Source: Gammaproteobacteria bacterium (GTDB taxonomy: Bacteria > Pseudomonadota > Gammaproteobacteria > Steroidobacterales > Rariloculaceae). Taken from it: a stretch of 64,000 bases of DNA. The notes beneath the pieces are model-generated. The model was not told the origin of the DNA. It did no database searches and saw only the letters and a program-made list of their open reading frames with translations. The stretch lies in the NCBI GenBank assembly GCA_035513215.1, contig DATKCK010000029.1, positions 1,075-65,074 on the forward strand, given 5' to 3'. The position numbers were made by a program, and so were the translations under genes. Every line of letters begins with the position of its first letter. Position 1 is the stretch's first letter. Positions 21,814-54,074 of this stretch are shown piece after piece.

Positions 21814-21820
21814 GTTGAGT

Positions 21821-37537: not shown

Positions 37538-38752
37538 TTGCGTCTGAAGCCCCCATTCGATCGGCTCCTGCTGCCGATCTACGTCCCGTCGCTGATCGTC
37601 TCGGCGAGTCAGACGGCGCTGCTCATATTGCTGCCGCTCTATGTCGTCGAGCTTGGAATGAGTGCAGCGATCGCGGCGCTGATCGTCGGCATTCGCGGTA
37701 TCGGGCTCCTGCTGTTCGACGTTCCCGCAGGGATGTTCGCAAGCCGTTTCGGCGATCGCGCCATCCTGCTGCTCGGTCTCGCCGTGCTCGTGGCCGGCAC
37801 GGGGCTCATCGCGCTCTCGGCGAACCCCTGGCTGCTTGCGCTCGGCGCGTTTTTGACCGGCGCCGGCTTCGCCGCCTGGATGCTCGGACGTCAGTCCTAT
37901 ATCGCCGACACCTGCGCACCGCGCGAGACGGGCCGGGCGATTACCGTCATGGCGGGCCTTCAGCGCGTCGGGATCTTCATCGGCCCCGGACTCGGTGGCG
38001 TGCTCGCGGCGGCGACAAGCTACTCGCTGACATTCGCCGTCGGCGCCGCGATCACCGTTGCGGCGGGCGCGCTCGTCTGGCCCTACTGCCAGGTGGGCAG
38101 CCGGCCGTCAGCGGGCGACGCGGCCGGGCACTTCAGTCTCGCGCCGACGCTCAGGCTCGCGCGCCGACATGCGCGCGTGTTCCTGACTGCCGGTTGGGCG
38201 GCGATGTCGCTTCAGCTCATGCGCGCGACGCGCATGCTGCTCGTGCCGCTCGCCGGTGTCGAGCTCGGGCTCGACGCCGCGGCCGTCGGGCTCATCTTTT
38301 CGGTCTCTGCCGGCATCGACATGTGCCTCTTCTACCCGGTCGGCTGGGTCGTCGACCGGCACGGGCGCAGATGGAGTGCCGTTCCGAGCCTGACGCTGTT
38401 CGCTCTCGGTCTCGCGTTGCTGCCGCTGGCATCGGGTTTCGCCTCGCTGCTCGCCGTCGCCTGCCTGCTCGGCTTCGCGAACGGAATCGGCACCGGCATC
38501 GTCATGATCATCGGTGCCGATCTCTCGCGCCGCTCCGAGGACCGCAGCCAGTTTCTCGGCGTCTGGCGCCTGATCGGCGACGCCGGCATGAGCGGCGCGC
38601 CGCTTTTGAGCGCGGCCTTGTTGAGCGTCGCCAGCCTGGCGGCGGCCAGCGTCGTCGTCGCCGCGCTCGGGTTCGCCGGCGCTTTCGTCATGCTAACGCT
38701 GGTGCCCGAGACGCTCGAGCGTGGGCCGACAGACTCCACTGAACGCCCATAG
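37538..38752 (+). CDS. MFS transporter
   Basis: 404 aa with 12 TM helices. It lies 4 nt after the aminotransferase stop. Its 3' end (…LVPETLERGP…) is partially duplicated at 48463-48533. Confidence 0.85.
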   Translation: MRLKPPFDRLLLPIYVPSLIVSASQTALLILLPLYVVELGMSAAIAALIVGIRGIGLLLFDVPAGMFASRFGDRAILLLGLAVLVAGTGLIALSANPWLLALGAFLTGAGFAAWMLGRQSYIADTCAPRETGRAITVMAGLQRVGIFIGPGLGGVLAAATSYSLTFAVGAAITVAAGALVWPYCQVGSRPSAGDAAGHFSLAPTLRLARRHARVFLTAGWAAMSLQLMRATRMLLVPLAGVELGLDAAAVGLIFSVSAGIDMCLFYPVGWVVDRHGRRWSAVPSLTLFALGLALLPLASGFASLLAVACLLGFANGIGTGIVMIIGADLSRRSEDRSQFLGVWRLIGDAGMSGAPLLSAALLSVASLAAASVVVAALGFAGAFVMLTLVPETLERGPTDSTERP

Positions 38753-39073
38753 CGCCAGGATCGGAAATAGCTCCCTGCCCTGACGTCCTCGACGGCTTCG
38801 TTGATTTCCTCGCCGGCGCGCTCAAGCGGGCCGCTTCGCGAAGCATCGGGTCTACGCGGCCGCGCGGTCTGTATGCTGGCGCACGTAGCGGCTCGCCTTA
38901 GGTGCGTCAGCGTACAGACGTCGCTGCGCGCTGAAGCTAGCGTCATTCGATGACGAGAAAAGCCGAGATCGGCTGCTGCGCGCTCGGGATCGCGCTGCTC
39001 GCGATTACTTCGGAGCGCGCACAGGGCGAAATTGGGCGGCAGCAGTCGATCCCTGAACTAGGTAGGCGATAGG

Positions 39074-41482
39074 GTGGGCTCGAGTTCTTTGCGTTGGGCG
39101 GCGTTCGCGTGGGCTTTGTTGCTCGCTGCGGCTCCCGCCGTAGCGGATCCGGTGATCGTGAGCGTTCCGCGTCTTTTCGTGAACGAAGGCGAATCGTACT
39201 CGTACACGATCGTCGTTCGGGACGACGATGACGACGACGACGACGATGACGACGATGACGATGACGACGACGATGACAGGCGTCGATACCGAATCAGCGT
39301 GACTTCCAAGCTGCCGCAGTGGCTCGCATTCGACGGCGACGACACGCTTTCGGGCACGCCCGGCGCGCAGGACTCGGGCAAGTATCGAATCTCGATCGAG
39401 GCAAGGCAAGGTCGCGACAAGGATACGCAGGACTTCACGATCACGGTACGGGACGTCGCGCCGACTCCTCCACCGCAGACGCCACCGCCTCAGCAACCGC
39501 CGCCACCGGCCCCGGCCCCACCGGCTCCGGCCCCACCGGCTCCGGCCCCACCGGCTCCGGCCCCACCGGCTCCGGCCCCACCGCCGCCAACGCCGCCACC
39601 GGCTTCGGCGCCACCAACGCTACCCTCGGCCGATCTCGCGGCCGCCATTGCGGTCTCACCGAATCCGACGCTCGCAGGCTCGCCCGCGAGGTGGACGTTG
39701 ACCGTGCGCAACGTTGGGGGCGCCTACGTCGCGAACATCGGTTTGCGCGCGCGGTTCTCGGGCATCGGGCCCCTTCAGCTCGAGCTCGTCTCTTCGCCGG
39801 CGTGCACGCTGCAACTACTAGGCAACGAGGCTGAGCTTGACTGCCGCCTCGGGCCGCTGGCCGGCGGGCAGGCGCAGTCGATCGAAGTCCTCGGCGGCAG
39901 CCGCGAGGCCGGCGAAGTTCTCGGCGTCGCCACGGTATCGATCGCCGACGCGGCGCCGCTCGATGGCGTGCTCGGCAACAACGAGGCGCGCGCATTGTTG
40001 ACGGTCGCCATGCAGTTGAGCAGCGGTCCCGCGCAACAGCTCCACGCGCCGGGCGGCACGGCATTGGCGGCCGGGGACCTTAACGGCGACGGTCTCGAGG
40101 ACATTGCCGTTGCGACGCGCTTCGGCGAGCGCACGTTGATCTTTTTGAACGGCCGCGATCCGAACGACGAGAACAAGCGCGCGTTCGCGCCGACGCCGCT
40201 GCGTTTCGGTACATCCGCGAACGGCAACGACATTGCCGCCGCCGATCTCGACGGGGACGGCCACCTCGATCTCGTCGTCGCGAACGCCAACGCCGACAAT
40301 CACATCCTCATCAATGACGGCAGTGGCGGGTTCGCGGTGATCGCACTGAGCGGCAGCTCGGCGTCGAGCAACGCCGTGGCACTCGGGGACGTCAATGGCG
40401 ACGGGCTCGTCGACATCGTGTTCGCGAATGCTGGCGCCAACACGGTATACCTCAATCAGGGCGGGAGGACGTTCGTGCGCGGCGCGAGTCTCGGCCAGGC
40501 GCAGGCCAACAGTGTCGATGTCGCGATCGTGGACTTGCTCGGCGATGCTCTGCCCGAGCTCGTGTTCGCGAACCCGGTCGGCGATGCCGCCGTGTACCAG
40601 AGCTCGGGAGGGAGCATCGTGCTCGCTGCTCCGCTGTCGACGGGCCCGACGACCGCGGTTTCCTCCGCGGACTTCGACGGCGACGGGCGCCTCGATCTCG
40701 TCTTCGCACGAAGCGCCGGCGCGGCGCGTGCGGCCTCGAATCTCGTCTACTTGAATCGCTCCACGGCGGTGCCTGTGTTCCTGCTTGCCGATGAGCTCGG
40801 CGGTTCCTCGACCGTCGACGTCGTCGCGGACGACGTCGATCTCGATGGTCTGGATGACGTCGTCGCGATCAACGCCGTCGGGAGCCACCAGCTCTACAAG
40901 AACAGCTCGCTCGGCGGCAGCATTGCGTTCCTGCTGCATCCCGAGCAGTTCGGGGGCGGCGGCGCCGCGGCCTCGGTGGCCGGCAAATTCAATCCAGACG
41001 AGCGCGTCGACATCGCGATCGTCGGCGCCGACCGGATTTCGATCTTCTTCAACGACGGTCGCGGCAATCTCGGCCCCGGCGACGTCGATGCGCCGACGCT
41101 AACGCTCGTGGGTACGCCATCGGTCGCATTTCCGGTCGGCACGCCCTACGTAGACAAGGGTGCGACCGCGATGGATGTCATCGACGGGGACCTGACCGCC
41201 GCGATCGAGGTCGACAATCCCGTCGACGCGAACGTCATCGGCACGTATACCGTTCGCTACGGCGTCGTCGACAGCTCCGGCAACGCGGCCTCGGCAGTCC
41301 ACCGTACCGTCCAGGTGGAGGCGCGTGGCGGTTCCGGCGGCGGCGGTGGCGGAGCGGTTTCGATCGAAATGCTGCTGCTGTTGCTCGCAGCCGCGTCGCT
41401 ACGCCGAGGTCTCGTCCGGGATTGGGCGCAGTGCCGGCACCTGCCAAGGCCCGTTTTTCCGGGATCGCCTAGCGAGATCTGA
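39074..41482 (+). CDS. large secreted FG-GAP/VCBS beta-propeller protein with Ig-like domains and GlyGly-CTERM-like tail
   Basis: 802 aa. Signal peptide; He_PIG/cadherin-like Ig domain interrupted by 19 Asp; Pro/Ala linker; CARDB/DUF11-like domain; seven D-x-[ND]-G-D-G-x-x-D FG-GAP repeats; DUF5011-like Ig domain; and GGSGGGGGGAVSIEMLLLLLAAASLRRG. Confidence 0.8.
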   Translation: MGSSSLRWAAFAWALLLAAAPAVADPVIVSVPRLFVNEGESYSYTIVVRDDDDDDDDDDDDDDDDDDDRRRYRISVTSKLPQWLAFDGDDTLSGTPGAQDSGKYRISIEARQGRDKDTQDFTITVRDVAPTPPPQTPPPQQPPPPAPAPPAPAPPAPAPPAPAPPAPAPPPPTPPPASAPPTLPSADLAAAIAVSPNPTLAGSPARWTLTVRNVGGAYVANIGLRARFSGIGPLQLELVSSPACTLQLLGNEAELDCRLGPLAGGQAQSIEVLGGSREAGEVLGVATVSIADAAPLDGVLGNNEARALLTVAMQLSSGPAQQLHAPGGTALAAGDLNGDGLEDIAVATRFGERTLIFLNGRDPNDENKRAFAPTPLRFGTSANGNDIAAADLDGDGHLDLVVANANADNHILINDGSGGFAVIALSGSSASSNAVALGDVNGDGLVDIVFANAGANTVYLNQGGRTFVRGASLGQAQANSVDVAIVDLLGDALPELVFANPVGDAAVYQSSGGSIVLAAPLSTGPTTAVSSADFDGDGRLDLVFARSAGAARAASNLVYLNRSTAVPVFLLADELGGSSTVDVVADDVDLDGLDDVVAINAVGSHQLYKNSSLGGSIAFLLHPEQFGGGGAAASVAGKFNPDERVDIAIVGADRISIFFNDGRGNLGPGDVDAPTLTLVGTPSVAFPVGTPYVDKGATAMDVIDGDLTAAIEVDNPVDANVIGTYTVRYGVVDSSGNAASAVHRTVQVEARGGSGGGGGGAVSIEMLLLLLAAASLRRGLVRDWAQCRHLPRPVFPGSPSEI
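39221..39277 (+). repeat. (GAC/GAT)19 trinucleotide tract encoding 19 consecutive Asp
   Basis: Read directly from the sequence, in frame with CDS 39074..41482. Confidence 0.9.
39503..39577 (+). repeat. 15-bp tandem repeat CCACCGGCTCCGGCC x5 (4 identical, 1 variant) encoding (PPAPA)n
   Basis: Read directly from the sequence, in frame with CDS 39074..41482. Confidence 0.85.
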
Positions 41483-41549
41483 GCAAGCTGCTGATCAGTA
41501 ATCCTGCGGTAACCGCGATTCCGAGCGAGGCGATGGGGTGATCGCGCAT
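41469..41549 (-). pseudogene. 3'-terminal remnant of a DUF883/ElaB/YqjD-family membrane-anchored protein
   Basis: The minus strand reads (SREY)MRDHPIASLGIAVTAGLLISSLLRSR*. This matches the conserved C-terminal anchor of the ElaB family (…YVRENPWQGIGVGAAVGLVLGLLLARR, from memory). The frame is closed by a TGA at 41565-41567, so more than 70% of the gene is missing. Confidence 0.55.
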
Positions 41550-41627
41550 ATACTCGCGCGAGTGTCACCCGCATGTGCGTCAGGAATCCCGCGCACCACC
41601 ACAACCACGACGAAGCGAAATCACCGC

Positions 41628-42380
41628 ATGGAACCGACCGCACTCGAACGTCCCGCCGGCCGCATTCAATCGCCGCTGTGGGGTATTCTGGCCAGCATCC
41701 TGTTCGTCGCCGCTATCGTCGGTGTACTGGTCTATTTCGGCGCCCACGAGCAGATCCTGCGCCTGCTGGAGTGGTTCGACGCCCAGGGGGCGTGGGTGTC
41801 GCTGCTGTTCATCCTGCTCATGGCGGCGGTGGTGGTGCTGGTACTGCCGGGTGTGCTGTTCACCACCGGCGCCGGTTTCGTGTTCGGCGTCATGGAGGGT
41901 TCCATCTATGTGGTGACCGGCACCACCCTGGGGGCGGTGCTGGCCTTCCTCATCGCCCGCTACCTGTTCGGGCAGCGCGCGCGGCGGTTCGTCATGGCCC
42001 GGTCAAAACTCCGCGTGGTCAGCGAGGAGCTCACACCGCATGGATGGAAGATCGTGCTGCTGACACGCCTGATCCCGTTCTTCCCCAGCAAGATCGCCAA
42101 CTATTTTTTCGGGCTGACCCCGTTCTCGCTGCGCGGTTACGCTGCCGGCTCGCTGCTGGGTTTCATCCCCTTCTCGGTGCACAACGTCTATCTCGGCTCC
42201 ATCGTCGCCGACCTCTCCACGCTGGGCGCGCGCGACCAGGGCCGTTCTCCACTGGAATGGACCCTCTACGGCGCCGGCTTCGTGGCCACCGTGGTCGCGG
42301 TCGTCTACCTCAACCGTCTGGCGCGTCGCGCGCTGGCCCGCTATACGGACGCAGGCACGATCGACGAGAATCAACCGTGA
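41628..42380 (+). CDS. TVP38/TMEM64-family (DedA superfamily, SNARE_assoc) membrane protein
   Basis: Start trimmed to MEPTALERPAG. 250 aa. …VLPGVLFTTGAGFVFG… and …LTRLIPFFPSKIANYFFGLT… are typical family motifs. Confidence 0.85.
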   Translation: MEPTALERPAGRIQSPLWGILASILFVAAIVGVLVYFGAHEQILRLLEWFDAQGAWVSLLFILLMAAVVVLVLPGVLFTTGAGFVFGVMEGSIYVVTGTTLGAVLAFLIARYLFGQRARRFVMARSKLRVVSEELTPHGWKIVLLTRLIPFFPSKIANYFFGLTPFSLRGYAAGSLLGFIPFSVHNVYLGSIVADLSTLGARDQGRSPLEWTLYGAGFVATVVAVVYLNRLARRALARYTDAGTIDENQP

Positions 42381-44626
42381 GCTGGATGACGTGGCTGCCC
42401 TGGCGTTTTGTCATTCGCTATATCGCGCGTAAGCAAGGCTTCCTGGATCCCATCGCCCTGTTGGCGCGTCTGCACAGATTTGCCCAACCGTCCGAGGTCG
42501 GTGAACCCATCGAGCTGCTACGCGCCGGCGTGGTGTTTCACGCCCGCGGCCTGAACAACAGCCGCGTCATCCAGCACAACCTGGACTGGGTCTGGCCCTA
42601 CTGGATCGAACGCCAGTTCGATCCGCATGATGTGTCGTTCATCCCGCGCGCCTTTTCCATCACCCACATCAATCTCACGCACCGCAACTGGACCGCGCTC
42701 GGCTATCCGGATTGCCCGGAACTACCGATCGTCGATCCCCGCGGCCTGCTCACACCCATCCTCGATGGCTGGTCGCTGGACGGCTGGCTGCTGGCCGAGG
42801 ACGGCCGCTGCCTGCTGCCCTCGCGGGCCGCCGATTGCCGGCAGCGTCAGGACATGGACCCCGGCGTGCGCATCACCACCGACACAGAAATGGGTGGCCT
42901 GGCCCTGAGCAGCAGCGCCTGGGTGCAGCTCGAATCGGGTGTCCCGGTGTGCAAGCTGCGCCTGCAGGCGCACTCCGACACGCAAGCCTGGCTGGTGCTG
43001 GCGCTACGTCCGTACAACCCGGAGGGCATCAGCTTCATTCATCAGGTCAGCCTGTCGAGTGACCGCAGGGCCTGGCTCGTCGACGATACCCAGCGCGTCG
43101 ACTTCAGCCGCCCCGCCGCGCGGCATCATGCCACTGATTACCGTCACGGGGACGTGTACATACATCTCGAGGATCTCGACGATCAGACCGGCGGCGGCTG
43201 CGACGTGGGCATGGTCACCGCGGCGGCGCTGTTTTCGGTCGCGGCCGGTGAAGCCACGGAGATCACCGCCAGCATCCCGCTCACGGACACACCCGGCCTG
43301 CTCGCCGCCGACGCCTGGAACGCCGCGCAACGCGGGCGCTGCACACTCACTTGCCCGGAGCCGCGTTACCAGTTTCTGTTTGATGCCGCAGTCGCCTCGC
43401 TGATTCTGCATTCACCGGACGACGTCTATCCCGGCCCCTTCACCTACAAGCGCTTCTGGTTTCGCGACGCCGCCTTCATCATCCATGCGCTGCTGTGCGT
43501 CGGCCTCACCGGACGAGCCGAACGCGCGCTGGCGCGCTTCCCGGAACGGCTGACGGCGCTCGGCTATTTCCGCTCCCAGGAAGGCGAGTGGGATGCCAAC
43601 GGCGAAGTGTTGTGGATCCTGCAGCGCTTCTACGCCCTGACCGGAAGGACGGCCTCGTCCGACTGGAATGGGACCATCCAGCGCGGCGCCCGCTGGATCG
43701 TACGCAAGCGCCTCGCCGACGATCTGGATGCGCCCCACGCCGGACTGCTGCCAGCTGGTTTCAGCGCCGAGCACCTGGGCCCTAACGATTACTATTACTG
43801 GGATGATTTCTGGGGCATCGCCGGTCTGCGTGCGGCGGCAGTCATGCTCGCGGATGCGGACCCCGTACACAGCGCGGAATTCGCGCAAGCGGCGGATGAT
43901 TTCGCGGCGGCGGTGCAACGCAGCCTGGCAGCTTGCACGCACCGCCTCGGTCGTCCCGCCATGCCGGCCTCGCCTTATCGCCGTCTGGATGCCGGCGCCA
44001 TCGGCTCGCTGGCGTTCGGCTATCCGGTGCAACTGTGCGCAGCGGACGATCCCCGACTGCTCGATTGCGTCGAGTTCCTGCTCGAGCGCTGTTTTGTGAA
44101 TGGCGCGTTTTACCAGGATATGATCCACTCCGGCCTCAACGCCTACCTGACCCTGCACGTCGCCCAGATCCTGTTACGCGCCAATGACCCGCGCCACCTC
44201 GAACTGATGGACACCGTCGCCGCCCTGGCATCGCCGACCGGCCACTGGCCGGAGGCGATCCATCCGCGCACCGGAGGTGGCTGCATGGGCGACGGTCACC
44301 ATGTGTGGGCTGCCGCCGATTGGGTGCTGATGCTGCGCAACTGTTTCGTGCGCGAGGAAGGCGAACGTCTCATCCTGTGCGCGGGCATCCCGCCGCGCTG
44401 GCTCGAGCACGGCACGCCGATCCGTTTCGGACCCGCGCCGACGGCCTTCGGCGCGGTGTCGATCGAGATCAAAGAGCACCCCGCGTCCGCGCTACGCATC
44501 ACATGGCGTGGCGATTGGCATCACAGCGCACCGCCCCTCGAGGTGCGCCTGCCTGGATACAAGGTGGTTAGCGTCACTGATGACAGCACGACCGTGGTCC
44601 CGGACAAAAAGGAAACTGTTGCTTGA
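42377..44626 (+). CDS. uncharacterised glycoside-hydrolase-like protein with C-terminal GH15/GDE-type (alpha/alpha)6 domain
   Basis: The GTG at 42377 overlaps the upstream stop (GTGA); the ATG at 42386 is an alternative. 749 aa. …TYKRFWFRDAAFIIHAL…, …EWDANGEVLW…, …YYYWDDFWG… and …GHHVWAAADWV… resemble six-hairpin glucoamylase-like catalytic domains. The N-terminal half is unassigned. Confidence 0.7.
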   Translation: MSWMTWLPWRFVIRYIARKQGFLDPIALLARLHRFAQPSEVGEPIELLRAGVVFHARGLNNSRVIQHNLDWVWPYWIERQFDPHDVSFIPRAFSITHINLTHRNWTALGYPDCPELPIVDPRGLLTPILDGWSLDGWLLAEDGRCLLPSRAADCRQRQDMDPGVRITTDTEMGGLALSSSAWVQLESGVPVCKLRLQAHSDTQAWLVLALRPYNPEGISFIHQVSLSSDRRAWLVDDTQRVDFSRPAARHHATDYRHGDVYIHLEDLDDQTGGGCDVGMVTAAALFSVAAGEATEITASIPLTDTPGLLAADAWNAAQRGRCTLTCPEPRYQFLFDAAVASLILHSPDDVYPGPFTYKRFWFRDAAFIIHALLCVGLTGRAERALARFPERLTALGYFRSQEGEWDANGEVLWILQRFYALTGRTASSDWNGTIQRGARWIVRKRLADDLDAPHAGLLPAGFSAEHLGPNDYYYWDDFWGIAGLRAAAVMLADADPVHSAEFAQAADDFAAAVQRSLAACTHRLGRPAMPASPYRRLDAGAIGSLAFGYPVQLCAADDPRLLDCVEFLLERCFVNGAFYQDMIHSGLNAYLTLHVAQILLRANDPRHLELMDTVAALASPTGHWPEAIHPRTGGGCMGDGHHVWAAADWVLMLRNCFVREEGERLILCAGIPPRWLEHGTPIRFGPAPTAFGAVSIEIKEHPASALRITWRGDWHHSAPPLEVRLPGYKVVSVTDDSTTVVPDKKETVA

Positions 44627-45912
44627 ACATCCTGATCCTCACCAACACCTTCACGCCGCATGTGGGCGGCGTGGCGCGCTCGGTGGAGGCGTTCAGCGCG
44701 GAATACCGTAAACGCGGACACCGCGTACTGGTCGTGGCGCCCGAATTTCCCGACATGTCGCTGGATGAAGTCGACGTGGTGCGCATCAACGCGATCCAAA
44801 ATTTCAACGACAGTGACTTCTCGGTCGCGCTGCCGATACATCCACAGCTCACCGATTCCATCGACGCCTTCGGCGCCGACATCGTGCACTCCCAGCATCC
44901 CTTTCTGCTGGGTATCACTGCGCTGCGCCTGGCGCGCCACCGGGGACTGCCGCTGGTATTCACGCATCACACCCTGTATGACCAATATACGCACTATGTC
45001 CCCGGCGACTCGTCCGCCCTGAAACGTTTCGCGATCGAACTCGCCACCCGCTATGCTAATCTCTGCGATCAGGTCTTCGCCCCCAGCGAGAGCATCCAGG
45101 CGCTGTTGCAGCAACGCGGCGTCACCACGCCGATTGCCGTAGTGCCCACCGGCGTGCGCCTGGAAAATTTTGCACAGGGAGATGGACCGGCCTTTCGCAG
45201 GCAGATGGGCATTCCGGAAACTGCCTTCGTGGTCGGCCATCTGGGCCGCCTGGCGCCGGAAAAGAACCTGGAATTTCTGACTCAGGCGGTCGCTGATTTC
45301 ATCAACCGCAACAGCCGTGCGCATTTCGTCTTGATCGGCACCGGCCCGTCCGAAGACGCCATCCGGAGTACTTTTGCCCGCGCCGGCTTAGAATCGCAGT
45401 TACACATTGCCGGCATTCTGCAGCAGCAACCGTTGGCCGACGCCCTGCACGCGATGGACGTGTTCGCCTTCGCGTCCACGAGCGAGACTCAAGGCATGGT
45501 GCTGACGGAGGCCATGGCGGCCGGTCTGCCGGTCGTTGCCCTGGACGCTCCCGGCGCCCGTGAAGTAGTCAGCGACGGGCTCAACGGCCGCCTGCTGACG
45601 GAGGCATCGTCCGCGACCTTCGGCGCCGCCTTGGCGTGGGTGGCCGGACTGGCACCGGAGCAATTGCGCGACGTGCAACAAGCCGCACTCGCCACCGCCG
45701 CGGCCTTTTCAATACCCCGATCGGCGGACAAGTCCCTGGCCTGCTACGCAGCGCTCGAATCTAAATCGACTATTTTTGATGCGAACAGAGATGAGCATGG
45801 CTGGGAGGATGTCATGACATTTATAAAAACAGAGTGGAATATCCTGAAAACTATGGCCCGAGCGAGCGACGCGGCGCTCGGCACTCACCTGTTTCCCGAA
45901 CAGGAAGACTGA
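44623..45912 (+). CDS. GT4-family (GT-B, group 1) glycosyltransferase
   Basis: The TTG start overlaps the upstream stop (TTGA). 429 aa. N-terminal NILILTNTFTPHVGGVARSV and the E-x7-E region …STSETQGMVLTEAMAAGLPVV…. Confidence 0.9.
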   Translation: MNILILTNTFTPHVGGVARSVEAFSAEYRKRGHRVLVVAPEFPDMSLDEVDVVRINAIQNFNDSDFSVALPIHPQLTDSIDAFGADIVHSQHPFLLGITALRLARHRGLPLVFTHHTLYDQYTHYVPGDSSALKRFAIELATRYANLCDQVFAPSESIQALLQQRGVTTPIAVVPTGVRLENFAQGDGPAFRRQMGIPETAFVVGHLGRLAPEKNLEFLTQAVADFINRNSRAHFVLIGTGPSEDAIRSTFARAGLESQLHIAGILQQQPLADALHAMDVFAFASTSETQGMVLTEAMAAGLPVVALDAPGAREVVSDGLNGRLLTEASSATFGAALAWVAGLAPEQLRDVQQAALATAAAFSIPRSADKSLACYAALESKSTIFDANRDEHGWEDVMTFIKTEWNILKTMARASDAALGTHLFPEQED

Positions 45913-45965
45913 TGCTGCACATATACCATTCACCACCCACGGCCGCGGACGAGGCAGACTAGCCC

Positions 45966-48383
45966 ATGCTTGGCCGAATCGAGACCCAACTACGGCGCCT
46001 GCGCCGCAACCTCAGTCGCAGTATCTGGCTTTCGCGTCTGCTGCGTCTGCCGGTGTCGGAGGGAGCGCCGACGCGGCCGGGGTTGATCATGATCCAGACC
46101 GACGGACTGTCGCAGCCGCAGTTCGAACGCGCCCTGGATCGAGGTGAACTGCCGTTCCTGCGCCGGCTGATCCAGCGCGAACACTATCAGCTCCATGCCC
46201 ACTATTCGGGCCTGCCGGCGACGACGCCCGCGGTCCAGGCCGAGCTGTTCTATGGTGTCAAAGGTGCCGTCCCGGCATTTTCCTTCAGAGACCATGAATC
46301 GCGGCGAATCGTGCGCATGTACGAACCGGACACGGCGGCGCGTGTCGAGGCGCTGCTCGCAGGCAACGGCAACGAGGCACTGCTCAAAGAGGGCAGCGCC
46401 TACTCTGACAACTTCACCGGCGGTGCGGCGGAGTCGCATTTCTGTCCATCATCGATGGGTTGGGGCCCGACATTGCGCGCGGCCAATCCGCTGGTGATGC
46501 TGGCGTTTCTGATCGCCAATTTCTACAGTTTTCTGCGCGTTGCTGTCTTGTTGTTGATGGAGTTGGGCCTGGCGCTGGTCGATTTCGTGCGTGGGATCCG
46601 GCGCGGACACAACTTCCTTGCGGAACTGAAATTCATACCGGCGCGGGTCGGCATCTCGATCCTGCTGCGCGAATTCTGTGTGATCGGCGGCAAGATCGAC
46701 ATCGCTCGCGGTCTGCCCATTATTCATATCAACTTCATCGGCTACGACGAACAGTCGCACCGCCGCGGTCCGCGCTCACTGTTTGCCCACTGGACCCTGA
46801 AAGGGATCGACGACGCCATCGCCCGGTTATGGCGCGCCGCCAATCATTCCGCATGGCGACATTACGAACTCTGGATCTACTCCGATCATGGACAGGCCCA
46901 CACCCGGCCCTACCATCACGTTCAAGGCTATACCCTGGCAGAGGCCGTGACCGCGGCGCTCGAAAAATCGGGCGCCAATACAGTCGAAATTCGCACCCAA
47001 GGCGTGGGCAGTATTCAGACCCAGCGGGTGCGTTTCCTCGGCGGCAAACGGATTCAGCACTTGTTCTCGGTGGGTATCAATGGCGAGGAAGCGCATGAAC
47101 ACCAACCCGTGCTTACCGCCCTGGGACCCGTGGGCCATGTCTATGCGCCGCAGCAAATGACTGGCGATGAACGAGATTTTGTCGCCCGTGAATTGGCGCG
47201 CACGCATAAGGTACCAATCGTGCTCAATGTGGAGGCCCCGGGCACGCTGTGCGCCCGCACCGATGCCGGTGAATTCCGTTTGCCGCAGGATCGTGCCGCT
47301 TTGTTCGGAGAGCGACATCCATTCCTCGATTCGATTGGCGAGGATCTGGTGCGCCTCTGCGAACACCCGGATGCTGGCGACTTCGTTGTGCTTGGCTGGC
47401 GTGAAGGCGTGATACCGATGACCTTCGCCGAGGAGAACGGCTCCCACGCCGGTGCGACGCCCGAAGAGACCAACGGTTTTGCGCTGCTGCCCGTGGACGC
47501 TCCTTTGGCGGCACGTGAACATGCGTACTTACGTCCCATGGACCTGCGCATTGCGGCGCTGCAGCATCTGGAGCGACAGGATCGTAAACCTGTCGCAACA
47601 CGCATACGTGCCGTCGCCACACCGACGGATACGCTGCGGGTCATGACCTACAATGTGCACAGTTGCATCGGCATGGACGGCAAGCTCGACGCCCAGCGCA
47701 TCGCCCGGGTGATTGCCCGCGGCAGACCGGATGTGGTGGCGTTGCAGGAGCTGGACGTGGGCCGCGCCCGCACCGATGGCATGAACCAGGCGCATTTGAT
47801 CGCCCGTTATCTGGAAATGGAGTTTCATTTCCATCCAACCCTGCATCTCGAGGAAGAACGCTATGGCGATGCCATCCTGACGAATCTGCCACAGCGCCTG
47901 GTCAAGGCCGGCGCGCTGCCGGGGCTCGCCGGCAAACGGCACCTGGAACCGCGCGGAGCGCTCTGGGTTGCCATCGAACTGCATGGTAAAGAGATTCAGA
48001 TCATCAATACTCACCTGGGATTGTTCCCGCGGGAACGCATGGCGCAGGGTGAAGCGCTGCTCGGCAGCGACTGGCTGGCACACGAACAGTGCCGGGAGCC
48101 GGTGATCCTGTGCGGCGACTTCAACGCCCTGCCGTCATCGTCGGTGTGCCGCCGGCTCGCTGGGCAACTCAAGGACGTTCAAACCGAGGTGCAGCACCAC
48201 CGCCCTAAAGGCACCTATTCCGGACGCTTTCCGACGGTGCGCATTGACCACATCTACATCAGCCCCGGACTCGAAGTAACCGGCATCGAAGTCCCGGCCT
48301 CGGAAATGGCGCGCGTCGCCTCCGACCATCTGCCGCTGGTCGCGGAGATGCGCATCCCTGAACAGCGCAACCTGCGGACATGA
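45966..48383 (+). CDS. two-domain phosphoesterase: alkaline-phosphatase-superfamily (NPP/type I phosphodiesterase-like) N-domain + endonuclease/exonuclease/phosphatase (EEP) C-domain
   Basis: 805 aa. AlkP-type ligands IMIQTDGLS, GLPATTPAVQ (Thr nucleophile), YDEQSHRRGP and IYSDHGQ. A hydrophobic stretch covers about residues 175-215. EEP motifs are MTYNVH, ALQELD, CGDFN and ASDHLP. Confidence 0.85.
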   Translation: MLGRIETQLRRLRRNLSRSIWLSRLLRLPVSEGAPTRPGLIMIQTDGLSQPQFERALDRGELPFLRRLIQREHYQLHAHYSGLPATTPAVQAELFYGVKGAVPAFSFRDHESRRIVRMYEPDTAARVEALLAGNGNEALLKEGSAYSDNFTGGAAESHFCPSSMGWGPTLRAANPLVMLAFLIANFYSFLRVAVLLLMELGLALVDFVRGIRRGHNFLAELKFIPARVGISILLREFCVIGGKIDIARGLPIIHINFIGYDEQSHRRGPRSLFAHWTLKGIDDAIARLWRAANHSAWRHYELWIYSDHGQAHTRPYHHVQGYTLAEAVTAALEKSGANTVEIRTQGVGSIQTQRVRFLGGKRIQHLFSVGINGEEAHEHQPVLTALGPVGHVYAPQQMTGDERDFVARELARTHKVPIVLNVEAPGTLCARTDAGEFRLPQDRAALFGERHPFLDSIGEDLVRLCEHPDAGDFVVLGWREGVIPMTFAEENGSHAGATPEETNGFALLPVDAPLAAREHAYLRPMDLRIAALQHLERQDRKPVATRIRAVATPTDTLRVMTYNVHSCIGMDGKLDAQRIARVIARGRPDVVALQELDVGRARTDGMNQAHLIARYLEMEFHFHPTLHLEEERYGDAILTNLPQRLVKAGALPGLAGKRHLEPRGALWVAIELHGKEIQIINTHLGLFPRERMAQGEALLGSDWLAHEQCREPVILCGDFNALPSSSVCRRLAGQLKDVQTEVQHHRPKGTYSGRFPTVRIDHIYISPGLEVTGIEVPASEMARVASDHLPLVAEMRIPEQRNLRT

Positions 48384-48462
48384 AGTCAGCCTGGCCGTGA
48401 GATACGCCTGTTGTCGCTGCAGTCCCCGTCTTCTGACGGCCTGGCGGCCGCGTAAAGGTCGA

Positions 48463-48533
48463 AAGGCGTCGTCCTGACGATGGTGCCCGAGACGCTCGAA
48501 CGTGCGCCCGCCGATCCCGCTCGACTAACATAG
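48463..48533 (+). pseudogene. 3'-terminal remnant of an MFS transporter gene (paralogous/duplicated copy of the 38690-38752 end)
   Basis: Reads GVVLTMVPETLERAPADPARLT*, against FVMLTLVPETLERGPTDSTERP* at the end of the intact MFS gene. The 18 nt GGTGCCCGAGACGCTCGA are identical (38701-38718 and 48482-48499). An in-frame TAA lies just upstream and there is no start codon. Confidence 0.6.
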
Positions 48534-48537
48534 CCCG

Positions 48538-49605
48538 ATGCAACGCGCGATTCACTGCTGCCTGATGCGCGGCGGGAGCTCCAAAGGGCTCTACTTCGAG
48601 GCTGCGAACCTGCCGGTGGACGTGGTCGAGCGGGACCGCATTCTCGTGGCGGCGATGGGCTCGGACCAGCGGCAGATCGACGGTGTCGGCGGCGCGCATC
48701 CCCTGACGAGCAAGGTCGCGATCGTGAGTCGTGCGGCCGAGGATTCGGCCGACGTCGATTATCTGTTCGCGCAGGTCGTCGTCGGCGAGGGCCGCGTCGA
48801 TACGACGCCGAACTGCGGCAACATGCTCGCGGCCGTCGGCCCGTTCGCGATCGAGGCGGGAATGATCGCGGCCGGCGACGGCGAGACGCGCGTGCGCGTA
48901 CGCATGCTGAACACGGGCAACCTCTGCGAGCTCGTCGTGCAGACGCCCGGCGGGCGCGTAACCTACGAAGGCAGCGCCAGGATAGACGGCGTGCCGGGAA
49001 CGGCCGCGCCGATCGTCTGCAACTATCTCGATGTCGCGGGCTCCGTCTGCGGCTCGCTGCTGCCGACCGGCAATGCGATCGATATCGTCGACGGCATCGA
49101 GGTCACCTGCATCGACAACGGCATGCCCGTCGTCGTGCTGCGGGCGCGTGACCTCGGCATCACTGGCCACGAGACGCGCGAGGTGCTCGATGGCAACGAG
49201 ACGCTCAAGCAAAGGCTCGAGTCGATCCGATTGCAGATCGGGCCGAAGATGAATCTCGGCGACGTCACGAGCAAGGTCGTTCCGAAAATGAGCCTGATCT
49301 CGGCGCCGCGGGCCGGCGGGCATGTCAACACGCGCACGTTCATTCCTCACGATTGCCACGCCGCGATCGGCGTACTCGGCGCCGTCTCGGTAGCGACTGC
49401 CTGCATCGTCCCCGGCACCGTGGCCGAAGGCATCGCCACCGTTCCCGAAGGGTCGATCAAGCAGATGTCGGTCGAGCATCCGTCGGGCGAGTTCTCGGTG
49501 ACGCTGGAGGTCGGCGGCACGCCCGACGCGCCCGAGGTGCTGAAGGCGGGACTGCTACGCACCGCGCGGCTCATCATGCGAGGCGAGGTATTCGTGGTTC
49601 AGTGA
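48538..49605 (+). CDS. ligU: PrpF-superfamily 4-oxalomesaconate tautomerase (GalD/LigU-like)
   Basis: 355 aa. …CLMRGGSSKG…, …QIDGVGGAHPLTSKVAIV…DVDYLFAQV… and …CIDNGMPVV… closely follow my memory of GalD/LigU. Confidence 0.85.
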   Translation: MQRAIHCCLMRGGSSKGLYFEAANLPVDVVERDRILVAAMGSDQRQIDGVGGAHPLTSKVAIVSRAAEDSADVDYLFAQVVVGEGRVDTTPNCGNMLAAVGPFAIEAGMIAAGDGETRVRVRMLNTGNLCELVVQTPGGRVTYEGSARIDGVPGTAAPIVCNYLDVAGSVCGSLLPTGNAIDIVDGIEVTCIDNGMPVVVLRARDLGITGHETREVLDGNETLKQRLESIRLQIGPKMNLGDVTSKVVPKMSLISAPRAGGHVNTRTFIPHDCHAAIGVLGAVSVATACIVPGTVAEGIATVPEGSIKQMSVEHPSGEFSVTLEVGGTPDAPEVLKAGLLRTARLIMRGEVFVVQ

Positions 49606-50291
49606 GGATTGCACTCGCATTCGATGTCTACGGCACGCTGATCGACACGGCCGGCGTCGTCGCTGAGCTGCGCGCGCTCGTCGGCAATCGTGCCGAGGCC
49701 TTCTCGGCACTCTGGCGCGAGAAGCAGCTCGAGTACTCGTTCCGGCGCGCGCTGATGCGCCGCTACGCGAAGTTCTCCGTCTGTGTCAGCGAGTCGCTCG
49801 ATTATGTCTCGGCCCGTCTCGACGTCTCACTGGCGGACGAGGACAGGGCGCGTGTGCTCGGCGTTTTCGGCGCCCTGCCGGCTTTCGACGATGTCGACTA
49901 TTGCCTGGCCCGGCTCGACATCGGCGAGTTCGGGCTCTATGCGTTGTCGAACGGGTCGCGCGACGCCGTCGAGAAACTGCTCGAGAACGCCGGGATCAAC
50001 GAGCGGTTCGCCGATATCGTCAGCGTCGACGAGATCGAGACGTTCAAGCCGGATCCAGCCGTCTACGAGCATTTCCTTAAGCGGGCCGGTGTGGACGGCA
50101 GCCACGCGTGGCTGATCTCGGGGAACCCTTTCGACGTGATCGGCGCCCAGTCGGCCGGGATGAACGGCGTCTGGGTCAAGCGGTCTCTCGATGCGGTCTA
50201 CGATCCCTGGGGCGTCGAGCCGACGCTGACGGCTTCGAGTCTTGCCGAGCTGGGTCCGAAGCTGCAGGAGTTCCTCGCGCGAAGCCGCTGA
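49602..50291 (+). CDS. HAD-superfamily hydrolase (type II haloacid dehalogenase-like)
   Basis: The GTG at 49602 overlaps the ligU stop (GTGA). VRIALAFDVYGTLID carries the DxYGT nucleophile motif. 229 aa. Confidence 0.75.
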   Translation: MRIALAFDVYGTLIDTAGVVAELRALVGNRAEAFSALWREKQLEYSFRRALMRRYAKFSVCVSESLDYVSARLDVSLADEDRARVLGVFGALPAFDDVDYCLARLDIGEFGLYALSNGSRDAVEKLLENAGINERFADIVSVDEIETFKPDPAVYEHFLKRAGVDGSHAWLISGNPFDVIGAQSAGMNGVWVKRSLDAVYDPWGVEPTLTASSLAELGPKLQEFLARSR

Positions 50292-50294
50292 AGC

Positions 50295-51548: not shown

Positions 51549-51567
51549 TCGCGGTTATCCCGATCGA

Positions 51568-54061: not shown

Positions 54062-54074
54062 GATTGCCGTCTGT

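What the first reader, a model, noticed from the sequence alone, without database searches (positions are those of the whole stretch)
41550..48465. Compositionally foreign ~6.9 kb block wedged between two truncated host genes
Seen in the sequence: between about 41.56 and 48.46 kb the sequence style changes. Leu is mostly CTG rather than the host's roughly equal CTC/CTG. For example, I counted about 12 CTG against 4 CTC in the first 450 nt of the GT4 gene, but about equal use at the start of cimA. AAA, GAA, CAA and CAT codons become common, and the host's ubiquitous GAGCTC/CTCGAG strings become rare. The left edge abuts a 27-codon 3' remnant of a DUF883/ElaB-type gene on the minus strand, whose frame is closed by a TGA at 41565-41567. 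The right edge abuts a ~23-codon 3' remnant of an MFS gene on the plus strand (48463-48533), 4 nt before the ligU-like start. The two remnants point away from each other. This is what a single replacement event would leave if it removed the 5' parts and shared promoter region of a divergent gene pair. I could find no integrase, transposase, tRNA or terminal inverted repeats, so the acquisition mechanism is unexplained.
Basis: partly seen in the sequence, partly recalled or inferred. Interest (0 to 1): 0.8.

Follow-up and report, generated by a model that had tools for sequence, protein, structure and literature searches.

The report
Acquired four-gene operon in variable slot
A 6.8 kb block of four genes was acquired by horizontal transfer and sits in a spot of this bacterium's chromosome where relatives carry nothing or quite different inserts; this is an ordinary kind of genomic island, though the four genes form a very widely shared module of unknown function.

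Summary
The block at 41,563-48,383 is the only compositional outlier in the 64 kb window, and both gene remnants are real.

The block is a conserved four-gene operon:
- a DedA/VTT membrane protein;
- a 749-aa protein with no Pfam match and a GH15/GH65-like fold;
- a GT4 glycosyltransferase;
- an alkaline-phosphatase-like/EEP fusion protein.

The same four genes occur in Beta- and Gammaproteobacteria, Lentisphaeria and Planctomycetota. The proteins are 68-86% identical to the window's, and the flanks differ every time. The codon usage of the window's block matches one such donor-like genome.

The MFS remnant is not half of a divergent pair. It repeats the last 68 nt of an intact MFS gene 9,781 nt upstream, with a 19-nt identical core. 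In seven relatives that MFS gene directly abuts the PrpF-family gene. A contig at 94-97% DNA identity shares the block-to-PrpF junction. Two contigs at 85% keep the MFS remnant but hold a different island (IS110 transposase, ParA, BrnT/BrnA toxin-antitoxin). A 91.5%-identical contig has the DUF883 gene continuing past 41,562.

So the block landed inside an older mosaic island in a recurrently variable slot. No recombinase is present, and the insertion mechanism and the operon's function remain inferred.

The parts
37538..38752 (+). Intact MFS transporter gene (404 aa). Orthologues in relatives lie directly upstream of the PrpF-family gene.
   Evidence: Pfam MFS_1, E = 1.1e-41. tblastn finds orthologues adjacent to PrpF in L001, L002, L003, L008, L086, L089 and L090.
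38686..38753 (+). Direct repeat copy A: the last 22 codons plus stop of the intact MFS gene. The 19-nt exact core TGGTGCCCGAGACGCTCGA lies at 38,700-38,718.
   Evidence: Repeat family D6: 68 nt, 75% identity, spacing 9,781. The core occurs exactly twice in the window against 0.06 expected.
38754..39073 (.). Non-coding stretch between the MFS gene and the FG-GAP gene. Homology to the FG-GAP locus of contig L091 begins at 38,887.
   Evidence: blastn. Six-frame translation shows no gene remnant.
39074..41482 (+). Secreted FG-GAP/Ig-like surface protein (802 aa). Its codon usage is host-like, but it is absent from this position in relatives.
   Evidence: Pfam FG-GAP_3, Bact_surface_Ig-like and He_PIG. 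Codon statistics. Homologue P0121 lies in an unrelated context in L091. No FG-GAP match in any PrpF locus.
41469..41564 (-). 3' stump of a DUF883/ElaB-type gene (31 codons plus stop). It converges on the FG-GAP gene and overlaps its end by 14 nt. It is truncated at 41,562/41,563.
   Evidence: Pfam DUF883_C, E = 3.6e-5. L092 has the same gene continuing past the breakpoint.
41563..41627 (+). 65-nt junction and leader of unknown origin between the DUF883 breakpoint and the DedA start codon.
   Evidence: Homology to L092 ends at 41,562. Homology to the operon in other genomes begins at 41,628. No similarity to the upstream regions of other copies.
41628..42380 (+). Gene 1 of the acquired operon: DedA/TVP38-family (VTT domain) membrane protein, 250 aa.
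   Evidence: Pfam VTT_dom, 83.9 bits against a cut-off of 33.9. 77-84% identical to L082, L084 and L085.
42377..44626 (+). Gene 2: conserved protein of about 749 aa with no Pfam family. The likely start is the GTG at 42,377, overlapping the DedA stop as GTGA. The predicted fold is a beta-sandwich plus an (alpha/alpha)6 barrel, like GH15/GH65/GH94 enzymes.
   Evidence: No Pfam, NCBIfam or PDB sequence hit. AlphaFold2 mean pLDDT 62.9. Foldseek against PDB: E = 3e-10, probability 1.00, TM about 0.3. Homologues are 72-92% identical in many phyla. The start is inferred from the homologue consensus MSWMKWLPW.
44623..45912 (+). Gene 3: GT4-family glycosyltransferase (429 aa). Its start overlaps the stop of gene 2.
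   Evidence: Pfam Glyco_transf_4, E = 7e-36, and Glycos_transf_1. The best NCBIfam similarity is alpha-monoglucosyl-diacylglycerol synthase at 131 bits, below the 400-bit cut-off.
45966..48383 (+). Gene 4: 805-aa fusion of an alkaline-phosphatase-superfamily (type I phosphodiesterase) domain and a C-terminal endonuclease/exonuclease/phosphatase (EEP) domain.
   Evidence: Pfam Exo_endo_phos at 82.4 bits and Phosphodiest at 38.6 bits, both above their cut-offs. 97% identical to L093 and 72-78% to copies in other classes and phyla.
48384..48464 (.). 81-nt spacer of unknown origin between the EEP stop and the MFS remnant. It lies within the 125 nt (48,377-48,501) that are missing in the close relative L093.
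48465..48534 (+). MFS 3' remnant: 22 codons, TAG at 48,531-48,533, and direct repeat copy B at 48,467-48,534 with its core at 48,481-48,499. The native junction to the PrpF-family start follows.
   Evidence: The junction sequence CATAGCCCGATGCAACGCGCG is identical to that of the uninterrupted MFS-PrpF junction in L086.
48538..49605 (+). Host backbone gene: 4-oxalomesaconate tautomerase (PrpF family). It anchors the right side of the variable slot.
   Evidence: NCBIfam NF033377 at 533 bits against a cut-off of 440. Synteny in L001-L008, L086, L089, L090, L093-L095 and L098.

Best explanation
The block at 41,563-48,383 is a horizontally acquired four-gene operon. It is translationally coupled (shown) and probably co-transcribed (inferred). 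Its genes are a DedA/VTT protein, a GH15/65-like protein with no Pfam family, a GT4 glycosyltransferase, and an alkaline-phosphatase-like/EEP fusion. It is the youngest layer of a 9.7-kb mosaic island that fills a recurrently variable slot between a conserved aminotransferase-MFS pair and a PrpF-family gene.

Proposed order of events:
1. An older event split or duplicated the last 68 nt of the MFS gene. This left the remnant that still abuts the PrpF-family gene. The remnant is shared with relatives that carry another island.
2. A resident FG-GAP and DUF883 gene pair came to lie in the slot.
3. The operon arrived from a CTG-preferring donor of about 58-64% GC, resembling the gammaproteobacterial MAG of locus L084. 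Its arrival deleted the 5' part of DUF883 and whatever lay between DUF883 and the MFS remnant.
4. Since then the operon has been inherited vertically. It was present before the split from the 94-97%-identical relative L093.

The joining mechanism is inferred, not shown. The most likely route is illegitimate or flank-homology-driven recombination into a permissive slot, with no element-encoded recombinase remaining.

The operon's function is also inferred. The favoured reading is a membrane-linked glycoconjugate module, most likely lipid head-group remodelling. In this reading the two-domain phosphoesterase removes phospho-head groups, GT4 glycosylates the lipid, the DedA protein redistributes it across the bilayer, and the GH-like protein trims or recycles the sugar.
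For: **Foreignness**
- Codon and oligonucleotide outlier statistics.
- Codon usage equals that of the operon and of its flanks in L084: GC3 0.76 and 0.71, CTG fraction 0.74 and 0.72.
- DNA homology of 78-81% to copies in Thiobacillus and in other Gammaproteobacteria starts at the DedA ATG (41,628) and ends at about 48,358. Flanks are unrelated in every genome.
- The same four genes occur in Lentisphaeria and Planctomycetota. Proteins are 68-86% identical across classes and phyla. The host's PrpF-family protein is only 76-80% identical even to the nearest genomes in the genome collection.

**Slot and history**
- Empty sites in L001, L002, L003, L008, L086, L089 and L090.
- Aminotransferase directly next to PrpF, with no MFS gene, in L098.
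- An aldo/keto reductase in the slot in L005 and L058.
- A different island with IS110, ParA and BrnT/BrnA, but the same MFS remnant, in L094 and L095.
- The same EEP-to-PrpF junction in L093 at 94-97% identity.
- DUF883 extends past the breakpoint in L092.
- A 68-nt repeat with a 19-nt exact core.

**Function hints**
- Pfam and NCBIfam assignments.
- Fold match of gene 2 to GH65, GH94 and GH15 enzymes.
- 4-nt start/stop overlaps between the genes.
Against: - No donor with near-identical DNA was found. The best copy is 81% identical at the DNA level, and the best gene 2 homologue is 92% identical at the protein level on a 4-kb contig.
- The left junction (DUF883 to DedA) is not confirmed by an independent assembly. 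L093 starts inside GT4.
- High conservation of the four proteins could partly reflect strong purifying selection rather than recent transfer.
- It is not resolved which of the two MFS 3' copies is ancestral. Each is about 57-63% identical to the L086 tail and to the other copy.
- The functional model rests on family-level similarity only. GT4's similarity to glucosyl-diacylglycerol synthase is far below the family cut-off. The gene 2 model has mean pLDDT 63 and TM about 0.3. A profile search of PDB sequences gave only E = 0.13-0.33. Only one of seven contexts (L081) is next to phosphate-regulon genes.
Confidence: 0.8

Rival explanations
1. The whole 9.78 kb (38,754-48,534) is a decayed site-specific integrative island. 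The attachment site lies in the 3' end of the MFS gene. The element brought a replacement MFS tail (copy A, right of the core). The 19-nt identical core is the crossover region. The recombinase has since been lost or was replaced when the four-gene operon came in.
For: - Direct repeats flank the island exactly. A perfectly identical 19-nt core sits between flanks of 63-76% identity, and the stop codons are in register.
- The intact gene is restored, as at classic 3'-end integration sites.
- The same point is occupied by an unrelated island with mobile-element genes (IS110 transposase, ParA, BrnT/BrnA) in L094 and L095.
- The core has decayed in the L094 remnant but is identical between the two copies in the window.
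Against: - There is no integrase or other recombinase anywhere in the island.
- A mismatch-free run of 19 in a 68-nt, 75%-identical alignment is only mildly unlikely (my estimate: roughly 0.1-0.2).
- The VPETLER motif is conserved coding sequence in copy A.
- The left end of the L094/L095 island was not seen.
- The FG-GAP gene is host-like in composition and lies in another chromosomal context in L091.
Confidence: 0.3
2. One replacement event removed the 5' parts and the common promoter of a divergently transcribed DUF883/MFS gene pair and put the 6.9-kb block in their place.
For: Both stumps are real and face away from each other. The DUF883 truncation coincides with the left edge of the foreign DNA.
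Against: - An intact MFS gene with the same 3' end lies 9.78 kb upstream, and orthologues of it abut PrpF in seven relatives.
- The MFS stump exists in L094 and L095, which lack the block.
- No relative shows a DUF883-MFS divergent pair.
Confidence: 0.05
3. The block is native and the compositional difference is intrinsic to these genes, for example an expression-level or protein-composition effect. Alternatively, the block is an assembly chimera.
For: The four proteins are unusually conserved, so selection on them is strong. DedA and gene 2 have near-host GC3. The window probably comes from a metagenome-type assembly, since the exact-protein look-up found nothing.
Against: - The block is absent from this site in all relatives below about 92% PrpF identity.
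- The synonymous choice between CTG and CTC shifts in all four genes and matches another genome's usage.
- An independent assembly (L093, a different ENA sample) has the same EEP-to-PrpF junction.
- L092 independently supports the FG-GAP and DUF883 side.
Confidence: 0.05

Closest known systems
Genomic islands in chromosomal hotspots: variable slots between conserved core genes. This comparison is from general knowledge of bacterial pangenome organisation, not tested against a named catalogue.
   Same: Conserved backbone genes lie on both sides. Close relatives carry different cargo or none at the same point. The cargo is compositionally deviant. Layers of different age form a mosaic.
   Different: No integrase, transposase or tRNA is present. 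The boundary is the 3' end of a protein-coding MFS gene, duplicated as a 68-nt diverged repeat.
Integrative elements that insert into the 3' end of a gene and carry a replacement 3' end, giving attL/attR direct repeats. These are typified by tRNA- and tmRNA-targeting islands (from general knowledge).
   Same: The target gene stays intact. A short stump of its 3' end lies at the far side. The direct repeats have an identical core.
   Different: No recombinase gene is present. The repeats are only 75% identical outside a 19-nt core. The cargo includes a host-like gene.
PlcP-Agt lipid renovation genes of marine bacteria. A phospholipase C plus a GT4 glycosyltransferase replace phospholipids with glycolipids under phosphate starvation (recalled from the literature, not retrieved here).
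   Same: A phosphoesterase is paired with a GT4 enzyme whose best family-level similarity is to a glucosyl-diacylglycerol synthase. One copy (L081) lies beside PhoX, PhoU and a phosphate-transporter ATPase gene.
   Different: The phosphoesterase here is an alkaline-phosphatase-like/EEP fusion, not a PlcP metallophosphoesterase. There are two additional invariant partners (DedA and the GH-like protein). Phosphate regulation was not tested.
Clan GH-L and related (alpha/alpha)6 enzymes: GH15 glucoamylase/trehalase, GH65 and GH94 phosphorylases.
   Same: The predicted architecture is an N-terminal beta-sandwich, an (alpha/alpha)6 barrel and a C-terminal beta domain. There is an FWFRDAAF motif that, from memory and untested here, resembles a GH15 signature. 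Foldseek probability is 1.00.
   Different: No significant sequence match to any Pfam or PDB family. There is a highly conserved N-terminal region of about 125 residues with no confident model. Catalytic residues are unassigned.

Membership tests
Horizontally acquired genomic island | Composition deviates from the host genome. | tested here: met
   CTG fraction z = 3.1-4.1. AAA and GAA z up to 5. Tetranucleotide z = 2.3-3.3 only at 41-48.5 kb. The GAGCTC/CTCGAG count is the window's minimum here.
Horizontally acquired genomic island | Absent at the same site in related genomes (empty site). | tested here: met
   MFS directly abuts PrpF in L001, L002, L003, L008, L086, L089 and L090. Other content fills the slot in L005, L058, L094, L095 and L098.
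Horizontally acquired genomic island | Closest homologues lie in unrelated lineages and different contexts. | tested here: met
   The gene 2 protein is 76-86% identical in Thiobacillus, Lentisphaeria, Planctomycetota and other Gammaproteobacteria. Flanks differ every time.
Site-specific integrative element | Flanking direct repeats (attL/attR) with an identical core. | tested here: met
   68-nt repeat at 38,686-38,753 and 48,467-48,534 with a 19-nt exact core. The core occurs twice against 0.06 expected. The repeats bound the 9.78-kb mosaic, not the 6.9-kb block.
Site-specific integrative element | Element-encoded integrase, recombinase or transposase. | tested here: not met
   No such domain appears in Pfam, NCBIfam or PADLOC scans of the genes. 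By eye, the six-frame translations of the spacers show no long open frame and were not scanned against any family library.
Site-specific integrative element | Insertion next to a tRNA or tmRNA gene. | tested here: not met
   ARAGORN finds no tRNA or tmRNA in the 64 kb.
DUF883/ElaB family (the left stump) | C-terminal glycine-zipper membrane anchor matching Pfam DUF883_C. | tested here: inconclusive
   E = 3.6e-5 at 23.8 bits, against a curated cut-off of 27, for a 31-aa fragment. The longer orthologue in L092 gives 24.2 bits. Truncation is shown by L092 continuing past 41,562.
MFS transporter (the right stump) | Homology to the C-terminus of a bona fide MFS gene. | tested here: met
   In-register 75% DNA identity to the 3' end of the MFS_1 gene at 37,538-38,752. 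The junction to PrpF is the same as in L086 and L090.
DedA/TVP38 (VTT domain) family | VTT domain above the Pfam gathering score. | tested here: met
   PF09335 at 83.9 bits against 33.9.
GT4 glycosyltransferases | Glyco_transf_4 N-domain plus Glycos_transf_1 C-domain. | tested here: met
   124.2 and 101.1 bits, both above their cut-offs. No NCBIfam equivalog reached its cut-off, so the acceptor is unknown.
GH15/GH65/GH94-type (alpha/alpha)6 glycoside hydrolases or phosphorylases (gene 2) | (alpha/alpha)6 catalytic barrel with flanking beta-sandwich, plus the family's catalytic acid and base. | tested here: inconclusive
   The fold match is significant by Foldseek (E = 3e-10, probability 1.00). 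However TM is about 0.3 and model pLDDT is 62.9. The sequence profile against PDB gives only E = 0.13-0.33. Catalytic residues were not mapped.
PlcP-Agt phosphate-starvation lipid remodelling | PlcP-type metallophosphoesterase plus Agt GT4, under Pho control. | tested here: not met
   No metallophosphoesterase domain is present; the phosphoesterase is a Phosphodiest plus EEP fusion. Pho regulation was not tested. Only L081 is near PhoX and PhoU.
Anti-phage defence or conflict system (suggested by the weak GT4-conflict Pfam hit) | Match to known defence-system protein models. | tested here: not met
   PADLOC gave no hit for any of the five proteins. The GT4-conflict hit (30 bits) lies under much stronger generic GT4 hits.

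The most novel reading that the evidence does not exclude
The four-gene module (DedA/VTT protein, GH-L-like protein with no Pfam family, GT4, alkaline-phosphatase-like/EEP fusion) is an uncharacterised envelope glycolipid or glycoconjugate remodelling pathway that spreads between phyla as a unit. Its roughly 750-aa core protein would found a new glycoside hydrolase or phosphorylase family: 2,232 clusters at 50% identity match it, and none of the members sampled has a Pfam domain. A second possible novelty is that the 19-nt core in the MFS 3' end is a reusable attachment site for islands that carry no recombinase of their own.
Probability: 0.35. Interest if true: 0.55.

Novelty: new member of a known kind. 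Interest (0 to 1): 0.35.

Why it matters
For the genome scan, this is a clean and well-bounded example of horizontal acquisition into a variable chromosomal slot. The breakpoint is dated at 41,562/41,563 and an older scar is recognisable. That makes it useful as a calibration case but ordinary in kind.

The more valuable by-product is the cargo. It is a four-gene module that stays together across at least four phyla or classes with unusually high protein identity. It includes a large family with a glycoside-hydrolase-like fold that has no Pfam or structural annotation, always partnered with a DedA-family membrane protein. DedA proteins are currently being assigned lipid-carrier and scramblase roles. 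An invariant genomic partnership with a GT4 enzyme and a two-domain phosphoesterase therefore offers a concrete, testable lead for what one DedA subfamily handles.

Tried and rejected
- **Exact-protein look-up of the window's PrpF-family protein:** not on record, so the source genome could not be identified.
- **tRNA and tmRNA scan:** none.
- **Promoter and terminator scan of 38.6-48.7 kb:** no more sites than in shuffled sequence, and nothing at the junctions.
- **Inverted repeats bounding the block:** only scattered chance-level pairs.
- **Conserved non-coding flanks among seven operon copies:** none. Homology is confined to the coding sequence.
- **PADLOC defence models:** no hits, so the weak GT4-conflict Pfam hit was discounted.
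- **Known plasmids:** only 24-27%-identical discoidin-domain proteins, so no plasmid-borne copy.
- **Literature searches** for the DedA, GT4 and EEP gene combination: nothing relevant.
- **Pfam on ten distant members of the gene 2 family:** no domains.
- **Profile of the gene 2 family against PDB sequences:** only sub-threshold hits to GH15 and glycogen-debranching enzymes.
- **Which MFS tail (A or B) is ancestral:** comparison with L086 and L090 left it undecided, with all pairs about 57-63% identical.
- **Pho box upstream of DedA:** by eye there is only a weak TGTCAC...TGTGCG pair at 41,563-41,579. I did not pursue it.
- **Low GC3 of my crude ORF at 4,817-6,715:** this is an ORF-calling artefact. 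Only its C-terminal half is a transketolase-like E1-beta gene.

Full report
**1. What is at the coordinates**

A GC-phase plot and ORF listing give this order of features:
- an aromatic-amino-acid-type aminotransferase gene at 36,337-37,533 (+);
- a full-length MFS transporter gene at 37,538-38,752 (+);
- 320 nt of non-coding DNA;
- a secreted FG-GAP/Ig-like protein gene at 39,074-41,482 (+);
- a short minus-strand stump at 41,469-41,564;
- four tightly packed plus-strand genes from 41,628 to 48,383;
- an 81-nt spacer;
- a 22-codon stump at 48,465-48,533;
- 4 nt later, a PrpF-family gene at 48,538-49,605. NCBIfam calls this gene a 4-oxalomesaconate tautomerase (533 bits, cut-off 440).

The four genes are as follows.
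- **Gene 1** is a DedA/TVP38 protein with a VTT domain (83.9 bits).
- **Gene 2** is a protein of about 749 aa with no Pfam, NCBIfam or PDB sequence match.
- **Gene 3** is a GT4 glycosyltransferase.
- **Gene 4** is an 805-aa fusion of a type I phosphodiesterase (alkaline-phosphatase superfamily) domain and an EEP domain.

The 1,017-codon ORF at 41,573-44,626 is real only from about 42,377 onward. Its first 800 nt overlap the DedA gene in another frame. Gene 2 most likely starts at the GTG at 42,377, which overlaps the DedA stop as GTGA. This matches the homologue consensus MSWMKWLPW.

**2. Check of the observation**

The compositional claim holds.
- CTG/(CTG+CTC) is 0.69-0.78 in all four genes. 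In 38 other genes of the window the mean is 0.41, sd 0.09, and no gene exceeds 0.59.
- AAA and GAA use is raised, with z about 5 in GT4 and EEP.
- CAA and CAT are not different from the host.
- GC3 is reduced only in GT4 and EEP.
- GAGCTC plus CTCGAG occur 6 times in the block, against 18.2 ± 6.5 for windows of the same size. The minimum for the whole 64 kb lies here.
- Strand-symmetric tetranucleotide distance exceeds z = 2 only for 3-kb windows between 41.0 and 48.5 kb.
- The FG-GAP gene just to the left is host-like on every measure. The left compositional break at about 41.6 kb is therefore real.

Both stumps are real.
- The minus-strand stump translates to HSREYMRDHPIASLGIAVTAGLLISSLLRSR*. 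It hits Pfam DUF883_C at E = 3.6e-5 and 23.8 bits, just below the curated 27 bits.
- A 2.2-kb metagenome contig, L092, is 91.5% identical to window 39,400-41,562. It carries the same convergent gene with the reading frame continuing past the point where the window diverges. The breakpoint is 41,562/41,563.
- No tRNA is present. No recombinase domain was found. No bounding inverted repeats were found.

**3.

The MFS stump is a direct repeat of the last 68 nt of the intact MFS gene 9,781 nt upstream.
- The two copies are 38,686-38,753 and 48,467-48,534.
- They are 75% identical, with stop codons in register and a 19-nt exact core, TGGTGCCCGAGACGCTCGA.
- The core occurs exactly twice in the window, against 0.06 expected.

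A scan of one genome per species with the PrpF-family protein found the nearest relatives at only 76-80% protein identity. These are uncultured Gammaproteobacteria, one of them labelled Candidatus Rariloculaceae.
- In L001, L002, L003 and L008 the order is ADH, aminotransferase, MFS, PrpF, with MFS ending 20-90 nt before PrpF.
- Closer metagenome contigs show the same: L086, L089 and L090, with PrpF 79-82% and MFS 62-82% identical.
- In L086 the junction ...CCATAGCCCGATGCAACGCGCG is identical to the sequence that follows the stump in the window.

So the stump marks the native end of the MFS gene. What is inserted relative to kin is 38,754-48,466. That stretch includes the FG-GAP gene and the DUF883 stump.

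**4. The slot is recurrently variable**

| Locus | Similarity to the window | Content between the aminotransferase and PrpF |
|---|---|---|
| L098 | PrpF 85% (protein) | Aminotransferase directly next to PrpF, no MFS at all |
| L005, L058 | PrpF 76% (protein) | An aldo/keto reductase between MFS and PrpF |
| L094, L095 | 85% (DNA, backbone) | More than 9.8 kb of unrelated genes: alpha/beta-hydrolase, cell-wall hydrolase, ParA, PhyH, IS110-family transposase, BrnT/BrnA, GNAT |
| L093 | 94-97% (DNA) | GT4 (partial) and EEP directly upstream of PrpF |

L094 and L095 still keep the MFS stump. Their homology to the window starts at about 48,481-48,501, and the tail CGTGCGCCCGCCGA(C/T)CCC...CATAG is 90% identical.

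L093 has the block at 96.7% identity and the backbone at 94-96%. It lacks window 48,377-48,501. This 125-nt loss is bounded by TGCG microhomology and fuses the EEP reading frame to the tail of the stump.

Three things follow.
- The MFS scar predates the split from the L094/L095 lineage.
- The four-gene block was present before the split from L093.
- The DUF883 truncation belongs to the arrival of the block.

The FG-GAP gene has a 75%-identical homologue, 87% at the DNA level over most of its length, in a quite different context in L091. The region is therefore a mosaic of at least two layers.

**5. Origin of the block**

The gene 2 protein has thousands of homologues. The best 120 are 72-92% identical. 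The named ones include Gammaproteobacteria, Thiobacillus, Thiohalophilus, Haliea, Desulfobulbaceae, Trichloromonadaceae, Pelovirga, Planctomycetota and Lentisphaeria.

Seven contexts were read: L081-L085, L096 and L097.
- All have the same four genes.
- In the Proteobacteria the order is the same and the genes show 4-nt start/stop overlaps.
- In Lentisphaeria the order is permuted (gene 2, VTT, GT4, EEP).
- In Planctomycetota the VTT gene is divergent.
- The flanks are unrelated in every case.

At the DNA level the window is 78-81% identical to L082-L085, from exactly the DedA start (41,628) to about 48,358. There is no similarity outside the coding sequence. Protein identities are 68-86% across classes and phyla. 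That equals or exceeds the identity of the host's PrpF-family protein to its nearest genome-collection relatives.

In L084, a gammaproteobacterial MAG, the operon's codon usage equals that of its own flanks. It is also practically identical to the window's block: GC3 0.76, CTG fraction 0.73-0.74, GAA 0.53-0.54. This points to an L084-like donor background.

The block is not on any plasmid in PLSDB and matches no PADLOC defence model.

**6. How it got there**

This section is inference. The left junction is a clean break inside DUF883, followed by 65 nt of unassignable sequence. The right junction is 81 nt of unassignable sequence followed by the old MFS scar. No recombinase, inverted repeats or target duplication bound the 6.8-kb block itself.

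The simplest reading is one illegitimate insertion-with-deletion event, or an exchange driven by homology in the conserved flanks. Such an event replaced whatever lay between the DUF883 gene and the MFS scar.

The older 68-nt repeat has a perfectly conserved core between much more diverged flanks. It restores an intact MFS gene, and the same point is occupied by a mobile-element-rich island in L094/L095. This is the pattern left by site-specific integration into the 3' end of a gene. I rate that reading at about 0.3, because no recombinase is present and because a 19-nt mismatch-free run is only mildly improbable (my estimate: roughly 0.1-0.2).

**7. What the operon does**

This section is also inference.
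- The AlphaFold2 model of gene 2 has mean pLDDT 62.9, and the N-terminal 127 residues are unmodelled. It shows a beta-sandwich, an (alpha/alpha)6 barrel and a C-terminal beta domain.
- Foldseek matches GH65 maltose and glucosylglycerol phosphorylases, GH94 phosphorylases and GH15 glucoamylase at E about 1e-10 and probability 1.00, though TM is only about 0.3.
- A 43-sequence family profile gives only sub-threshold PDB hits, to GH15 glucodextranase and glucoamylase and to a glycogen-debranching enzyme (E = 0.13-0.33).
- The family is large: 2,232 clusters at 50% identity with E ≤ 1e-3, and 462 with E ≤ 1e-30. It has no Pfam model; ten distant members gave no hits.
- GT4's best family-level similarity is to alpha-monoglucosyl-diacylglycerol synthase and GlcNAc-phosphatidylglycerol synthase, far below the equivalog cut-offs.
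- From general knowledge, both domains of gene 4 belong to superfamilies that include phospholipase-C and sphingomyelinase-type enzymes.
- From general knowledge, DedA-family proteins are lipid and lipid-carrier transporters.

The invariant presence of the membrane protein makes me favour a lipid head-group remodelling module (about 0.35) over a compatible-solute synthesis and turnover set (about 0.2).

Neighbouring genes in other genomes are often stress-related: CsbD plus PhoX and PhoU in L081, BON and Usp in L085, ferritin and SOD in L097, and DUF883 here. This is suggestive but not tested.

**8. Verdict**

In kind this is an ordinary genomic island with no surviving mobility gene, so it is a new member of a known kind.

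The cargo deserves a note of its own. It is a cross-phylum, tightly conserved four-gene module with an unannotated GH-like family.

Noticed in passing
L094:1-9800 and L095:1-4860: In relatives at 85% DNA identity, the same slot upstream of the PrpF-family gene holds an unrelated island: alpha/beta-hydrolase, Hydrolase_2, ParA, PhyH, IS110-family transposase, BrnT/BrnA toxin-antitoxin, GNAT, DUF4160 and DUF2442. The island's left end lies beyond the contig.
   Followed up: partly
L093:3180-3310 (window 48,377-48,501): The closest relative lacks 125 nt between TGCG microhomologies. Its EEP gene therefore loses its stop and reads into the tail of the MFS stump (813 aa instead of 805).
   Followed up: yes
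L098:8802-11068; L005:8832-10010; L058:9093-10166: Further states of the same slot. In L098 the aminotransferase lies directly next to PrpF with no MFS gene. In L005 and L058 a minus-strand aldo/keto reductase lies between MFS and PrpF.
   Followed up: partly
window 42,377-44,626 and proteins P0361-P0510: Gene 2 belongs to a large family with no Pfam model: 2,232 clusters at 50% identity, with full-length members down to about 30% identity. About 35 residues are invariant, including R360, D361, E401-W402-D403, E462-H463 and E623, which could be catalytic. The N-terminal 125 residues are highly conserved but were not modelled confidently.
   Followed up: partly
L096:8001-14710; L097:7086-13973: The four genes stay together across phyla, but their order is permuted. 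In Lentisphaeria it is gene 2, VTT, GT4, EEP. In Planctomycetota the VTT gene is divergent. This argues for functional coupling rather than mere co-transfer.
   Followed up: partly
L081:9027-9218 and 15780-22247; L085:14078-14812 and 18367-18819; L097:1198-2618: Neighbours of the operon in other genomes are often stress or phosphate-regulon genes: CsbD, PhoX, PhoU and a phosphate-transporter-type ATPase; a BON-domain protein and Usp; ferritin-like protein and superoxide dismutase.
   Followed up: no
window 39,212-39,283 and 39,455-39,615: The FG-GAP surface protein contains a run of about 20 aspartates encoded by a 9-nt GAC/GAT periodicity. It also has a Pro/Ala-rich linker encoded by a 15-nt tandem repeat with about 8 copies. 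Both are likely length-variable.
   Followed up: no
L082:1-8905; L083:761-8905: In Thiobacillus the operon lies next to a giant protein (over 2,700 aa) with SpvB, TcdB_toxin_midN, FG-GAP and RHS domains. The window's FG-GAP protein also has a weak TcdB_toxin_midN hit. This may be a coincidence.
   Followed up: no
window 33,481-37,533 and 48,538-54,929: The conserved backbone around the slot looks like an aromatic-acid meta-cleavage pathway of the protocatechuate/gallate type. It includes enoyl-CoA hydratase, HpcH-type aldolase, a zinc alcohol dehydrogenase, an aminotransferase, 4-oxalomesaconate tautomerase, a HAD hydrolase, a BT1/MFS transporter, an aldehyde dehydrogenase and an amidohydrolase_2.
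   Followed up: partly
window 44,623-44,626: In the window, GT4 appears to start with TTG in a TTGA overlap with the stop of gene 2. I did not check the start codons of homologues.
   Followed up: no
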